Of a stretch of 64,000 nucleotides of DNA, positions 2,108 to 64,000 are shown piece after piece; within the stretch, counting starts at the first letter, position 1, and each line of letters starts with the position of its first letter. The notes under the pieces are model-generated. The model made no database searches. It saw only the letters and a program-made list of their open reading frames with translations, and was not told the DNA's origin. The DNA comes from Octopus sinensis (Eukaryota): contig NC_042998.1 in NCBI RefSeq assembly GCF_006345805.1, forward strand, positions 64,790,001 through 64,854,000, read 5' to 3'. Made by a program: the position numbers and the translations under genes.

Positions 2108-2154
2108 AGACAACTGATGAAGGCTGGAGGTTATATGAATCGAAACGTTGTGTT
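2108..2154 (+). ncRNA. Minimal type I hammerhead-like motif (family H1), degenerate stem II
   Basis: acaa CTGATGA a ggctg..gaatc GAAAC GTT gtgt. Sister copies at 52185 and 41997 show stem II GGCTG/CAGCC and stem I ACAC/GTGT. Palindromic AACGTT replaces stem III. Confidence 0.6.
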
Positions 2155-5100
2155 AACAACAAACAAGATGAGGACAAATATCGGTCAAATGATATATATA
2201 TCGCCATGATCGTCTTGCCACAAAAGTCTTTTTTCTCTCTCTCTGTTTATTTTCTGGTAGGCTCGAAACGTAAAAGTATTTCTTACCTTCCCCAGCGTTA
2301 AACTAATACACCTGTTTGTTGTTTACACACCTGTTTTCGTATTTTGCTTTTTGTTTTTTTGTTTGTGATTTAAGAGTAATCCTGCATAAGGGCAAAGTCT
2401 GACGGCCGTTTCTGGAAGCTATAGTTTGTTATGGGAGAGCTAGCTCCAATCATAGCAATTATCTATACTTCTCACATCAGAGTTAAAACATTGGAAGAGT
2501 TGTTAAAATTTTAAGAGAAATGAAAGAAGCTTTTTAAGAATAATGTTTTATCGACAAATACTGTTATTGCGGATGATATGATTAGAATCTTTTAATTTTA
2601 CATTCCTGAAGCTCAATTAGAACGCTAATTAGTTGTGCTGTATAAAGTAGATAACTAAACCATTTACTTCTTCATTATATACATACATACATACATATAT
2701 ATAATACACAAGCATAGCTAATTATTATATTTTTATGTCTGTGTGTGCGCGCACTCATATGTGCATAATCATATCGCATAACCGACTTCATTAAAAGGAA
2801 ATTTCAAAAATAGCAATCTCAACCCCCTTTTCATGATATGTGAGGAATGTAAGATTTTTTTCTAAAAAATTTTTAATATTACTGCAATTTATAACTTTGG
2901 GGCTTATTACAATGATATCTCGTTCAAATACTGGGTCAGAATCATTAATTTGTAATGCCACTCAGATTAGAAAGATTTCCAATATATTTATTGAAAATTG
3001 CAATGATAGCATAAACTAATCTGACAAGCGGTAGGTAATCTCGTGGTGAGAATTATCATACATTAAGCCCTCAGAATGTTACTTTAAGGAAAAAAAGTGT
3101 TCAAAATATCTGAAACACAGTATTAGTACGCAATACAGATGTGAAATTTTTACAACACAATAAAACGCAATGGCTGTTACTGGGGCGAAGTGGGAGGCTT
3201 CCATCTTCAAACAGGCAGACGATCATTCCAACACGCCCTCCGCGATTCAAAACGACAACAGTAATTATGTTACAGCGTCTCATAAATCGTCTTAATTGAA
3301 ACTCTAAAGTGATATGAGTCGGGTGTCTTCAATTATGGAGTGATGTGCATAATGGAATTGTATCAACTGTTGTGTGTGTGTGTGAGTGCGTGTATTATAT
3401 ATAATATACATATATGTATATGCTTATATGTTATATATATATATATATATATATATATATATGTATAACATATATCCATACACATATGTATATCATATAA
3501 CACAAACACACACACAAATATATATATATATATCCTATATGTATATCTATCTATATATATATGTGTGTGTGTGTATGTATTATGTATGTATATGTGCAGA
3601 AGGGTGTATATATGATTCTATGAACTGTGAAGTGAGCCGCAGACAATTCTCGGCGCTTCTCATACAATATCTGTTGAAACAAATAGATATTAATTGAAAA
3701 GTGTGTCCTGATAAATTGTTGAGTGCTGGTGTCATTATTTTCATTGTATTTCTTGTTCCATTCAGTCATTTTCGTTCTATATCAAATGAATCACATCTTA
3801 TTTCGTTTTATTTCATTTACAAATTACCCTTGCAAAGCTTTCAGACATTTTCGACTTCGGCAAGATCACGTAGACGAGCTGTCTGCCAAGAAATTTTGAC
3901 TTACCTAATTTTGTCAGTAAAATTAACATTATACAAAATGTGACAAACATTTGAAATTGAAGAACGTCTTCAGAAGTAGTAGCATTGCATATACACTTTA
4001 AATATACCAGGTGAGATAGAAACCAACGTAGACAGCGCGATAAGAAATATATTTCATTAGTTCTTACATTTTCCAGTTGATATTTTTGCTAAACTGATTA
4101 CAGAAACTTCACACCTAACACATTCCATTTTCAAAGTTTCTTCATCTAGGTTGCTACCGATGCTTATACATTGTCTTGTCTTGTAATATATTTCCGTTCT
4201 GATCTATGCTGTTCTCTATTTATCACTCAGTGATGCAATACCTAATTTAAAGTTAAACAAAACAGAAAACTGTGATTAATCGTTCAGGGTTGCATTTCAC
4301 AGGAATAACAGTTTAGTTAGGCAGAACATGTTTAATACAGCATTGATATTAATAAGAGAAAAAAACGAAAACATTCGGTGGAAGATTGGTTCAATTCTTA
4401 GCCTGTGGAATATCATGGTTTGCTATTTTCTCCAGCTCTATCTGTTGGAATTGGTCTTTCATCCATCCAGTAATATATTCTAAGTTATTGACTAAACCTC
4501 ATCGTCTGAAAGTTTTGGTGTTGAGCCTAAATTAGGAAACAATATTTGCTGAAAAACTAACTGTATTTGACTGACAGATGTTATTTCAATTATTTGAGAT
4601 ATACTTCGGATATATTACCTGTTATTATATCTGGACAGTGAATAATACAAAGACTGATGCTGTTCTGGTATTGTTTTAGAAGTTATTGTTATTAGGCGAC
4701 AAAAAAAAAGGACTTGTTCCTACATGTTATCTCGTTTGAAGCTCTAATCACAACTCCAAGATTGAAATTACTTATCGACACCGAAGTGTTAGAAAGCAAA
4801 CCTCACTTCAAATGATTTGAGCACAACCTTATGGAATGCAATGGGAGGCTTTAAACATTTTGACAATTTGCCTCTTTAAGGATTTGACATTTCCTCCTAT
4901 ATTGCAATGATGATGGTGGTAATCTTAGGTGAATTGTTGGAGCGTGGGTAAAAACGCTTTGTAGAATTTGTTCCGGTTCTTTGCGTTCTGAATTCCCATA
5001 TCGCTAGCGGGAAAAATATAGTGCCAGTCAAGAACTGTGGCTAATGTCACAGCTGTTCCCCATAAAATTTTTCCTTGTAAAATAATTTTAAACAATATAT

Positions 5101-5696
5101 TCCAATGATGTTATTCACTCTGGCATGAACATTAAACTGAAACATAGATAATGCTTCGAAACAAAATTAAATAAAATTTCAGAAAAAAACCACAGAAATA
5201 CTATGAAATTTCATACGGATTTTGAATATGATAGAAACATCGGTTAAGCACTTTTCAATGTTAAAAGAACATATTTGGAAGTGTCCCAAAATAAAGTAAA
5301 AATCATTCAAAATAACCTCATTTGGGCCTTAAACATTCAAATGCGGAAGTAATGTGCTGGTCTGTCACACACATACGGGCAGACACACAGGCGCTCAGCC
5401 ATATGTCTTGAGAGAGAAAGAGATATATATTGAGAGTTATATATAATTCCATACATATTCGTAGTGCATCTTTTTCTGATTGTCTGTCTCTGTCTGTATG
5501 TATGTCTCTCTCTCATTTTCTCTCTATCTCAAAAATATATATATGTATATATATATTTATACATAGAGATATATAGAGAGATAGAAAGTGAGAGACAGTT
5601 TTTGAAGTGACGTACAGATATTGTATATTTAGAATAGTAAGGTAGTCGAACATTTGGATGATGATGATATATGTATATATATATATATATATATAT

Positions 5697-6450
5697 ATAT
5701 ATAAATTCATAAATGAGGGTAAAAAATTAGATATTAATTTAATAATACGGTCAGTTTAACACCAAGTGGCCTAGCACATAGAAACCAGGGAGACAGGACA
5801 AATTTATACGTAAATATAAGAGAGTTAACGTTAAGTGGCTAACTCTAGTACTAGAAATAGCTCCTTATTCTGCTATAGCCACCGAAGTTGTTTCCACAGA
5901 AGAAATAACATTACCTTCAACGTAAGGGAAGCGAAATACAACGAAAAGATATATTAATACTGAACAATTGTTTTTTTATCAACATAAATGCAATTATACT
6001 ACATATTTGTCTATAAATCATCAGCAAGTGTTTGTCCTCGATACAATCTATCAGACCACACGGGCGATAATACATACCCATGGCGTCTGATCGATTGCAT
6101 ACATAGTTGTAGTTTAGCTTCCCGCCAAAAGCATGCTAAGACTCCGTGGAAACCAATACCGCATACAATATTTGCTGCAGCATATTAATATATAAATTCA
6201 TAAATGAGGGTGAAAAATTAGATATTAATTTAATAATACCGTCAGTTTAACACCAAGTGGCCTAGAACGTAGCAACCAGAGAGACAATACAAATTTATAC
6301 GTACATATAAGAGAGTTGTGGGTCTGATAGATTGTATCGAGGACAAATGTTATTTCTTCTGTGGAAAACAACTTCGGTGGCTCTAACATAAGGAGCTATT
6401 CTAGCACAATAGTTAGGCACTTACGTTACTCTCTTATATTTACGTATATT
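5697..6450. mobile_element. Non-coding PLE-like stub with tandem and inverted duplication
   Basis: 5697-5830 is repeated at 6188-6316, and 6317-6450 is an inverted copy of internal parts. (TA)n lies on both sides, and the stub contains an HHR-like motif. Confidence 0.6.
5959..6029 (-). ncRNA. Type I hammerhead-like motif with G12A change
   Basis: Minus strand: acttg CTGATGA TTTAT..ATAAA AAAAC AATT GTT cagt. Confidence 0.5.
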
Positions 6451-62587: not shown

Positions 62588-63842
62588 ATCTACCTTGATT
62601 TTGCAAAAGCTTTTGACAAGGTGGATCATGGTATGATATGCCACAAACTACGTGACCTCGGCATAGCTGGAAAACTTGGAGTGTGGTTGCATGACTTCCT
62701 GAAAGATAGGAGTCAGGCAGTAGTGGTTAATGGAGCCACCTCTATGAACACACAAATAGTGAGCGGTGTTCCACAGGGTACTGTCTTGGGACCACTGCTT
62801 TTTATAGTGGCCCTTTCAGATATGCCCTCAAATGCCCGGATAGCCACTCTGGCCAGCTATGCAGACGATACGAAAGTCTCGCAGAAAATACAGAACCCCA
62901 GCGAAGTTGCACACCTGCAGCAGGTGTTGGACTCAATCTACAGATGGGCTGAGGATAATAATATGCAGTTTAATGCTGAAAAATTCCAGGCCCTGCGCTA
63001 CCAGCATCCAAAACTTAATATTAAACTTACAGGATACACCGGTCCACAGGGAATTTCAATCCCAGAGCCTAAGTCTGTGAGGGACATGGGTATCGACATG
63101 AGTGATGATACCTCTTTCCAAGTGCACATTACCAGGATGGCGACAAAGTGCAATCGACTTGCTGGGTGGATCCTAAGAACATTCAGAACCAGAGATAAGG
63201 AAGCCATGATTGTCCTCTGGCTGACATTCGTCCTCAGTCACCTGGATTACTGCTCACTGCTATGGTCACCCACCAGTGTAAATTTAACAGCGGACCTTGA
63301 AGCAATCCAGAGAAGATTCACAAAGAAGATCGTCTCTTTGCAACAGCTCAGCTACTGGGAAAGGTTGAAACAGCTAAGACTCTACTCCCTAGAGAGAAGA
63401 CGGGAGAGGTATGCAGTAATATATGTCTGGAAGATCCTGGAAGGAATTGTGCCAAATTTTGGCATTGTAAGCTACACCAATGCTAGAACGGGACGAGACT
63501 GCATAGTGCCAAAGATCCCAGCAATGCCATCACGCTTCAGGACCAGCTTCTGCAACAGCCTAGGTTTCAAGGGTCCACAGCTTTTTAATATTCTCCCAAA
63601 GAGTCTGAGGAACTTGCACAAAGTAGATGTAGCGGTTTTTAAATCAAAGCTGGACATCTTCCTGTCAAGAGTCCCAGATGAACCTACCTCACGGCAAGAG
63701 GTGCAAATGAGAGTAGCTGTATCAAACTCCATTCTTCACCAAGTGCCACATACTAGACGAGGTTCGTCATAATAACAGTGTAGCACAAAACGGCGGTGCA
63801 TCAGCATGGCCGCAGCTCTGAGCTGAAACCAGAAAAAAAAAA
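62588..63842 (+). mobile_element. CR1-group LINE, 5'-truncated, uninterrupted RT frame
   Basis: [36 protein letters not shown]. The frame is open from 62588 to 63772; tail GGCGGTGCATCAGCATGGCCGC..GAAAC plus an A-run. Confidence 0.95.
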
Positions 63843-63849
63843 TATATAT

Positions 63850-64000
63850 ATAGGGAGATTTCACAAAAAAACAAAAGACGTAGACAGGTGGTTTTAGACA
63901 ACAAACAGATGCATTAGTTTAACGCTCGGGAAGTGAACAAAATTTTATATTTCGAGCGTACACTCTTCCACAGAAATGAGCATAGAAATAAACAAGGAGA
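63850..64000 (-). mobile_element. PLE-like stub (homologous to 2250-2360) with eroded hammerhead
   Basis: Minus strand: CTGTGGA a GAG tgtacg CTC GAAAT. Confidence 0.45.

What the first reader, a model, noticed from the sequence alone, without database searches (positions are those of the whole stretch)
2108..63975. More than a dozen minimal hammerheads from several families scattered in (TA)n-flanked stubs
Seen outside the array: motifs at 2108(+), 5959(-), 8051(+), 10322(+), 19226(+), 19441(-), 23853(+), 31190(-), 32115(-), 41835(-), 41997(+), 47152(+), 52185(+), 54186(+), 59311(+), 59749(+) and ~63945(-). Stems I and II differ between families, but most share the C(T/C)GANGA..GAAAC layout with stem III reduced to a palindrome (AACGTT, ACAATTGT, ACACGTGT). 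Many copies carry core mutations. Known: such minimal HHRs mark PLE pLTRs and cleave as dimers. Inference: much of the anonymous DNA between microsatellites consists of PLE or retrozyme 3' ends, implying a very large unannotated ribozyme load in this genome.
Basis: partly seen in the sequence, partly recalled or inferred. Interest (0 to 1): 0.72.

Follow-up and report, generated by a model that had tools for sequence, protein, structure and literature searches.

The report
Penelope retrotransposon stubs carrying hammerhead motifs
The 17 spots are hammerhead-ribozyme-shaped ends of about a dozen repeat families, four of them traced to Penelope-type jumping genes and most copies here damaged, so this is likely a known kind of animal-genome debris, present at an estimated tens of thousands of intact-looking copies, whose self-cutting is predicted but untested.

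Summary
All 17 sites are copies of repeats; 16 belong to families whose typical copy has a type I hammerhead core with palindromic helix III, and one (54186) is probable. They form 12 families. A strict descriptor finds 20 hits in 600 kb of arbitrary genome against 0 in 5 shuffles. Four families are tied to Penelope-like (PLE) ORFs: two Hydra-like (one ORF in the window, 21504-23417), one Poseidon-like, one Neptune-like. Only about 3 of the 17 window copies look intact. Extrapolated load is roughly 40,000-110,000 intact-looking motifs. The families seen here cover only 1.1% of sampled DNA (5.7% of the window), so 'much of the anonymous DNA' is overstated. The kind is known (PMC4209133). Three twists: a tRNA-like head in the Poseidon-like family's terminal repeat where most 5' ends stop; a fixed A6-to-U core in the Neptune-like family (39 of 39); and a 3-base loss at the predicted cut site in 15 of 107 copies, often in one arm only. 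The scan already noted the same zoo and all three twists on other DNA of this genome. No cleavage or RNA evidence.

The parts
1985..2056 (-). Family A tRNA-like head, inverted arm next to the 2114 stub
2114..2149 (+). Family A hammerhead (Poseidon-like PLE); core and ACGT palindrome kept, stems I and II damaged; stub 2060-2191
5963..6024 (-). Family G hammerhead, long helix II, helix III ACAATTGT; G12 changed to A; stub about 5874-6108
   Evidence: (intact sister in L127)
8055..8081 (+). Family B hammerhead (U4C core CCGACGA); A9 and A15.1 damaged; stub 8028-8183
10326..10376 (+). Family H hammerhead, 9-base helix III, one mismatch; stub 10310-10415 with an inverted partial arm upstream
19230..19256 (+). 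Family B hammerhead; core intact, stem I damaged; stub 19163-19358
19444..19517 (-). Family D hammerhead, intact; pLTR of a very young Hydra-like PLE; stub 19362-19834
21504..23417 (+). 5'-truncated Hydra-like PLE ORF (RT then GIY-YIG-like end), one in-frame stop at about 22239
23865..23936 (+). Family F hammerhead in the 3' pLTR of that ORF; GAAA reads GATA in this copy
31203..31239 (-). Family I hammerhead (11-base helix III in sisters); truncated after GAAA at a junction with another repeat
32121..32196 (-). Family J hammerhead, very long helix II; helix III and stem I damaged
41839..41874 (-). Family A hammerhead, left arm of an inverted pair; G12 damaged
42003..42038 (+). Family A hammerhead, right arm of the inverted pair; G12 and U16.1 damaged
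47156..47193 (+). Family C hammerhead, intact, helix III ACAATTGT; young family (98-99% identity)
52190..52225 (+). Family A hammerhead; G8 changed to A, palindrome broken; stub 52136-52310 after (AAT)n
54191..54259 (+). Family K probable hammerhead remnant; first core half damaged, internal deletion; 2 copies seen
59315..59354 (+). Family M hammerhead (CCGATGA); one helix III mismatch; 3 copies seen
59753..59787 (+). Older relative of family C; core intact, weak stem I; part of an inverted pair 59510-60002
63946..63973 (-). Family N hammerhead with family-wide A6U core (Neptune-like PLE); stub runs about 83 bp past the window end

Best explanation
The sites are hammerhead-shaped motifs in short repeat stubs of 12 families, four of them traced to Penelope-like retrotransposon genes, and they are likely 5'-truncated terminal repeats (pLTRs) left dead on arrival in TA- or AAT-rich DNA. 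Shown: family membership, cores and palindromic helix III in family majorities, pLTR-ORF-pLTR anatomy for family D, ORF links for F, A and N, and decay of most window copies. Inferred from published PLE work: in a master locus with two same-strand pLTRs the two motifs would pair their palindromes into one helix III and cut slowly, probably helped by the element's protein; the RT-endonuclease would nick AT-rich DNA and copy the RNA's 3' part, mostly stopping early, which leaves a solo or inverted stub with one sense ribozyme half. Such stubs are predicted to be nearly silent: no partner in cis, and an inverted arm would pair with the motif.
For: Descriptor excess over shuffles. Stems differ in sequence between families yet pair, while core letters stay. 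D: pLTR-899-aa ORF-pLTR with identical hammerheads in L122; Hydra-like ORF pieces in 7 of 20 D loci; 41 places at 100% identity over 221 bp. F: lies 450 bp behind the window ORF; core intact in 18 of 23 plausible matches (6 junk regex rows dropped from 29). A: head follows the RT/EN match on the same strand in 14 of 20 ORF-selected loci, head plus hammerhead tail in 11 of 20. N: Neptune-like RT or EN upstream in 2 of 20 loci. Monomer helix III adds no computed stability (+1.1 to -0.5 kcal/mol) whereas the two-strand palindrome gives -1.7 to -10.3. Family A core substitution 0.042 versus flank 0.038. Literature: PMC4209133 (most motifs single, probably truncated PLEs; low dimer activity), PMC8557442 (Hydra clade, TA targets), PMC11167929 (ribozyme needs protein, not needed for insertion in vitro).
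Against: No ORF link for B (0 of 30 loci; two neighbours are other elements), C (0 of 20), H (0 of 12), I (0 of 12) in +-1.5 kb loci; G, J, K, M have only 2-6 copies in hand. B occurs as TA-spaced tandem dimers in L075/L076 and L077, which fits a non-autonomous unit. The loci were picked by likeness to the stub, so ORF links are under-sampled. Clade names rest on motifs, not on a tree. No cleavage was measured.
Confidence: 0.85

Rival explanations
1. Several families (B, C, H, I, and short A units) are non-autonomous elements or retrozyme monomers that are transcribed on their own and borrow PLE enzymes.
For: No ORF link for B, C, H, I; tandem B dimers; tandem arrays of other hammerhead units in L055 and L213; family A 5' ends pile up at the tRNA-like head; bioRxiv 10.64898/2026.07.22.740005 argues animal retrozymes derive from pLTRs.
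Against: N, D and H 5' ends are spread as expected of truncation; A, which first looked like a SINE, proved to be the end of a coding PLE; the searches favoured stubs.
Confidence: 0.35
2. The scattered motifs are working ribozymes kept by the host to cut transcripts that read through them, in trans with other copies.
For: High density; palindromic helix III could pair between molecules; family I could form a 4-bp helix III alone; cores of N and H are better conserved than flanks.
Against: 12 of 17 window copies fail even the relaxed descriptor; family A core decays neutrally; the N and H signal is also expected from selection on master lineages; published activity of such motifs is low (PMC4209133).
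Confidence: 0.07
3. Chance matches in AT-rich DNA.
For: A loose scorer does give a few hits in shuffles (2.6 per window at score >=3).
Against: 0 strict hits in all shuffles against 20 and 3 observed; every site has homologous copies.
Confidence: 0.02

Closest known systems
Minimal and small-palindromic-helix-III type I hammerheads in pLTRs of metazoan PLEs (Cervera and De la Pena 2014, PMC4209133; read parts 1-2 of 4)
   Same: Type I layout, short helix I, extra base after A9 in A, B and N, palindromic helix III, many families per genome, mostly single truncated copies, some opposite-strand pairs 100-700 bp apart.
   Different: Estimated density here (about 25 loci per Mb, own descriptor) is above the 2,000-9,000 per genome reported there (different descriptor, so not strictly comparable); helix II up to 60 bases; odd-length helix III; family-wide A6U.
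Hydra-clade PLEs (Craig et al. 2021, PMC8557442; section 11 and passages)
   Same: Families D and F: C-terminal GIY-YIG, RW and DKT motifs, CxxC and CxH near the end, hammerhead in pLTR, TA targets.
   Different: No CxCX5C linker; a long Ser/Asn-rich linker instead; unit about 3.6 kb rather than under 3 kb; no tree made.
Penelope/Poseidon PLE PAc of Anolis (PMC11167929; passages)
   Same: Family A: RT then GIY-YIG, pLTR hammerhead, AT-rich (AAT) insertion context.
   Different: A tRNA-like A/B-box segment and (AAT)n sit between the ORF end and the hammerhead; none is mentioned in the passages seen.
Schistosome SM-alpha hammerhead SINE-like repeats (as summarised in PMC6765202, section 11) and animal non-LTR retrozymes (PMC7229834 passages; bioRxiv 10.64898/2026.07.22.740005 parts 1-3 of 5)
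   Same: Pol III-type promoter plus hammerhead (family A); high copy number (126,247 in axolotl).
   Different: Those are non-coding tandem repeats with mostly canonical hammerheads; the 17 sites are dispersed, and A is part of a coding PLE.
A6C core variant, phage Bcep176 (PMC3088659, PMC7151607; passages)
   Same: Natural change at core position 6.
   Different: Family N has U6, fixed in an abundant animal family; A6C is slow in Mg2+ and prefers Mn2+; A6U is untested here.

Membership tests
PLE minimal type I hammerhead | Core C3-Y4-G5-A6-N7-G8-A9 ... G12-A13-A14-A15.1 ... U16.1-H17 in family majority | tested here: met
   A, B, C, D, G, H, I, J, F, M. N differs by U6 (39 of 39); K majority ends the first half in T on 2 copies.
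PLE minimal type I hammerhead | Helices I and II pair with family-specific sequences | tested here: met
   Stem I 3-6 bp, stem II 4-6 contiguous bp in 9 representative copies.
PLE minimal type I hammerhead | Helix III reduced to a palindrome | tested here: met
   ACGT, ACAATTGT, ACACGTGT, ACATATGT, ACGATCGT, ACAGCTGT; odd-length in H and I.
PLE minimal type I hammerhead | Self-cleavage as a dimer | not testable with these tools
   Only energies computed.
Penelope-like element pLTR | Repeat lies behind (and before) an RT plus GIY-YIG ORF | tested here: met
   D and F, A, N (2 of 20 loci).
Penelope-like element pLTR | Same, for families B, C, G, H, I, J, K, M | tested here: inconclusive
   No link in +-1.5 kb loci for B, C, H, I; too few copies for the rest.
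Penelope-like element pLTR | Tandem or inverted 5'-truncated insertions in microsatellites | tested here: met
   Inverted pairs in A, C, D, F, H, I; 12 of 17 near (TA)n.
Hydra clade (families D, F) | C-terminal GIY-YIG, RW(K) and DKT motifs, terminal CxxC and CxH, hammerhead, TA targets | tested here: met
   Read in P0001 against PMC8557442 section 11; RWL instead of RWK.
Hydra clade (families D, F) | CxCX5C linker motif | tested here: not met
   One Cys only in the linker of P0001; hence 'Hydra-like'.
Hydra, Poseidon, Neptune clades | Placement on an RT tree with reference elements | not tested
Non-LTR retrozyme | Head-to-tail tandem units each with a hammerhead, no ORF | tested here: not met
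   The 17 window sites are solo or inverted; tandem B dimers exist elsewhere.
tRNA SINE (family A) | tRNA-derived head with A and B boxes | tested here: met
   Best of 20 host tRNAs (8 anticodon types) is Arg-TCT, score 52.5 against shuffle max 38; ARAGORN calls none in 14 loci; Rfam no tRNA hit.
tRNA SINE (family A) | Non-coding unit independent of a coding element | tested here: not met
   Head follows a PLE ORF in 14 of 20 ORF-selected loci.

The most novel reading that the evidence does not exclude
This genome is a natural mutagenesis library of PLE hammerheads with in vivo footprints: a coding Poseidon-like element is driven by a captured tRNA (Pol III) promoter inside its terminal repeat and spawns SINE-like offspring; its ribozyme cuts in the animal and leaves a 3-base scar in one arm of many insertions; and a Neptune-like family thrives with a selected A6U core.
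Probability: 0.3. Interest if true: 0.65.

Novelty: new member of a known kind. Interest (0 to 1): 0.33.

Why it matters
The kind is published, so the main result is an annotation: tens of thousands of hammerhead-shaped PLE ends that Rfam misses in an octopus-like genome (recalled resemblance, not tested), where the one cephalopod count I found is 235 Rfam hammerheads in giant squid (PMC6962438). The open question is what PLE hammerheads do, since they were dispensable for insertion in vitro (PMC11167929). A very young family with intact pLTR-ORF-pLTR copies, a cut-site scar countable in DNA, and a fixed core variant make that question testable in one genome.

Tried and rejected
Rfam scan: no hammerhead among the 150 rows shown. 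First exact descriptor found only 1 site because it allowed no stem mismatch. Idea that family A is a free tRNA SINE: rejected when a GIY-YIG ORF end was found upstream of the head. Idea that B belongs to the Neptune-like ORF beside it in L072/L121: rejected, that ORF ends in a different terminal repeat; likewise for C in L156. Idea that stub 5' ends pile up at the cut site: not seen in 8 families. The F parse was off register and was replaced; M gave no parse there. One search flooded with TA matches and was redone. PDB search with P0001 found nothing useful; Pfam found no RT in P0001; the Atlas gave RVT_1-bearing animal clusters as leads only. RNA: no RNA holder listed, contigs only; guessed-RNA contigs cover the D element in all 30 bins but cannot show expression or cleavage. 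Sequence look-ups in earlier findings were blank. Lunse et al. 2017 is not held; seen only as summarised in PMC6765202, so its core variants (possibly including A6U) were not checked. Supplements were not opened; those of PMC4209133 and PMC8557442 may list octopus PLEs or A6 variants.
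Full report
Setting. The window is AT-rich (about 33% GC) and full of TA, AAT and CA microsatellites. It lies at G000:C2:64790001-64854000 in a 2.72-Gb genome of 13,516 contigs. That it is octopus-like is a recalled resemblance, not tested. A 485-bp tandem array at 37122-39996 is outside this finding.

Is it there, and above chance? All 17 places show a first core half, a stem II, a GAAA-like half and a short palindrome-like helix III. Outside the array a scoring descriptor gave 10 hits at score >=5 and 6 at >=7, against shuffle means of 0.36 and 0.04 (25 shuffles in 250-base blocks). 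A second descriptor (exact core, A6 free to be A, C or T, odd or even helix III) gave 3 strict and 5 relaxed hits against 0 and 0.23 (30 shuffles). Rfam listed no hammerhead among the 150 of 179 rows shown.

Families. Self-comparison and genome searches sort the sites into 12 families: A (2108, 41835, 41997, 52185), B (8051, 19226), C (47152 and its older relative 59749), D (19441), F (23853), G (5959), H (10322), I (31190), J (32115), K (54186), M (59311), N (63945). First-look candidates, which are rough lower bounds: A 1645, B 3113, C 1176, D 540, H 738, N 1863. Copies with an intact core among those spanning the motif, in samples biased to window-like copies: A 51 of 112, B 33 of 40, C 22 of 22, D 34 of 37, H 16 of 21, I 6 of 6, J 2 of 4, G 1 of 2, N 31 of 39 (counting U6 as its norm); F 18 of 23 after dropping 6 junk rows of 29; M 3 copies aligned; K only 2 copies, neither perfect. 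Stem sequences differ between families and still pair. In the window only 19441, 47152 and 63945 pass the strict test. Site 31190 is a chimera: its family hits end at GAAA and another repeat starts 11-14 bases on.

Links to coding elements. The window holds a truncated PLE ORF at 21504-23417; its RT drew 11,380 candidates, 150 scored. Family F lies 450 bp behind it and in the same place in sister copies. Family D is the terminal repeat of a related, very young element: L122 reads hammerhead, 899-aa ORF, hammerhead, and 41 places match the window stub at 100% over 221 bp. The protein has DKT, RW, a C-terminal GIY-YIG-like part, CxxC and CxH but no CxCX5C linker, so Hydra-like (PMC8557442 section 11). 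Family N has a Neptune-like RT or endonuclease upstream in 2 of 20 loci. Family A is the end of a Poseidon-like element. B, C, H and I showed no link in 30, 20, 12 and 12 loci of +-1.5 kb.

Load. In 60 arbitrary 10-kb stretches of the large contigs the strict descriptor gave 20 hits, 6 of them one tandem array, so 15 loci, against 0 in 5 shuffles and 0 reversed. Scaled up: about 68,000 loci (Poisson 38,000-112,000; clustering widens this). Stubs of the window's families number 43 hits (2 are self-hits of references) and cover 1.1% of that sample, against 5.7% of the window. Published counts: 2,000-9,000 minimal motifs per genome (PMC4209133), over 6,000 in a coral and 126,247 in axolotl (PMC7229834). 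So the load is high but not a record, and the claim that much of the anonymous DNA is PLE ends is not borne out for these families.

How it likely works. Shown: anatomy and decay. Computed: closing helix III within one motif gains nothing (+1.1 to -0.5 kcal/mol), while two copies pair by -1.7 to -10.3. From the literature: such motifs cut weakly and as dimers (PMC4209133; PMC6765202 section 11), and the Anolis one cuts only with protein and is dispensable for insertion in vitro (PMC11167929). Inferred: masters with two same-strand pLTRs process their RNA; target-primed copying into AT-rich DNA mostly stops early and leaves solo or inverted stubs that then decay. In family A the core changes as fast as the flanks (0.042 and 0.038, p 0.48); in N and H it is better kept (0.014 against 0.070 and 0.074), as expected from selection on several master lineages. 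No pile-up of 5' ends at the cut site was seen in 8 families.

Twist 1, tRNA-like head. Family A reads ORF end, about 30 bases, a 78-base head with A- and B-box-like motifs, (AAT)n, then the hammerhead tail. The tail follows the head in 25 of 29 head-selected loci. The head resembles host tRNA-Arg(TCT) best among 20 tRNAs (52.5 against shuffle max 38) but is not called a tRNA. Among 38 copies not selected on the head, 20 reach its start and 19 of these stop between -17 and +5. A Pol III start explains this; so would an RT stop at the small hairpin there, which is also the centre of fold-back junctions in 15 loci. One search (penelope, pLTR, tRNA, polymerase III) returned only a review that describes schistosome SINEs; two searches listed nothing on this by title or abstract.

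Twist 2, A6U. All 39 family N copies have U at position 6 while position 7 varies over four letters. A6C is a known slow, Mn2+-preferring natural variant (PMC3088659, PMC7151607). The search for A6U listed no hammerhead paper with it, but Lunse et al. 2017 could not be read.

Twist 3, scar. Family A has an exact 3-base loss spanning the predicted cut in 15 of 107 copies, against 4 of 296 in three control intervals (p 1.5e-6 pooled, 0.015 against the worst control). No other allele tracks with it among 144 tested except an adjacent column, and in 6 of 8 two-arm loci only one arm has it. This fits cleavage, trimming and rejoining or a template jump; slippage at a 2-base microhomology is the rival, and B, N, H, D and C show no such peak.

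Print and prior notes. Searches for hammerhead with Penelope and octopus or ribozyme and cephalopod gave no paper on octopus hammerheads; a 2026 octopus repeat annotation never uses the word ribozyme (PMC13282606); giant squid has 235 Rfam hits. The scan has already noted, on other DNA of this genome, the same zoo, the tRNA-headed element, the A6U family and the 3-base loss. I found the head, the ORF link and U6 before reading those notes; the scar test followed a note.

Papers seen: PMC4209133 parts 1-2 of 4; PMC8557442 passages and section 11; bioRxiv 10.64898/2026.07.22.740005 parts 1-3 of 5; PMC6765202 passages and half of section 11; passages only of PMC11167929, PMC7229834, PMC13282606, PMC6962438, PMC7151607, PMC3088659. 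No supplements.

Verdict. Real, well above chance, a new member of a known kind; interest 0.33, with the family-level twists carrying most of the value.

Noticed in passing
window 37122-39996 (- strand cores at 37455, 37937, 38418, 38903, 39389, 39874): The 485-bp array units carry a hammerhead-like motif with core CTGCCGA (A6C) and helix III AATT; an inverted partial unit follows at about 39997-40190; pieces also occur in L253.
   Followed up: no
   Followed up: no
window 1149-1213, 2257-2352, 7920-7995, 26290-26637, 31428-31719: More stubs of families A, N, D, C and I that lack the core; 26353-26637 and 31428-31719 are fold-backs.
   Followed up: partly
L055 406-3192 and L213 2848-5220: Tandem arrays of about 557-bp and 535-bp units, each with an intact-looking hammerhead (retrozyme-like), met in 2 of 60 arbitrary 10-kb samples.
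   Followed up: no
window 31070-31189 and L284, L291: A young repeat (98-100% identity in many copies) fused to the family I stub; its copies hold a GACGAAG...GAGCC-type segment that may be a rearranged hammerhead like those in earlier notes.
   Followed up: no
L121 1621-3900: Neptune-like PLE ORF whose own terminal repeat holds another small hammerhead family (helix III ACCGGT).
   Followed up: partly
window 13236-13973 (-); 20150-21332; 24194-25097 (-); 62576-63772 (+): Tc1/mariner transposase remnant and three CR1/Jockey-like LINE RT fragments (Pfam hits for three of these).
   Followed up: partly
L075/L076 and L077: Family B stubs as head-to-tail dimers spaced by (TA)n, the arrangement that could allow dimer cleavage.
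   Followed up: no
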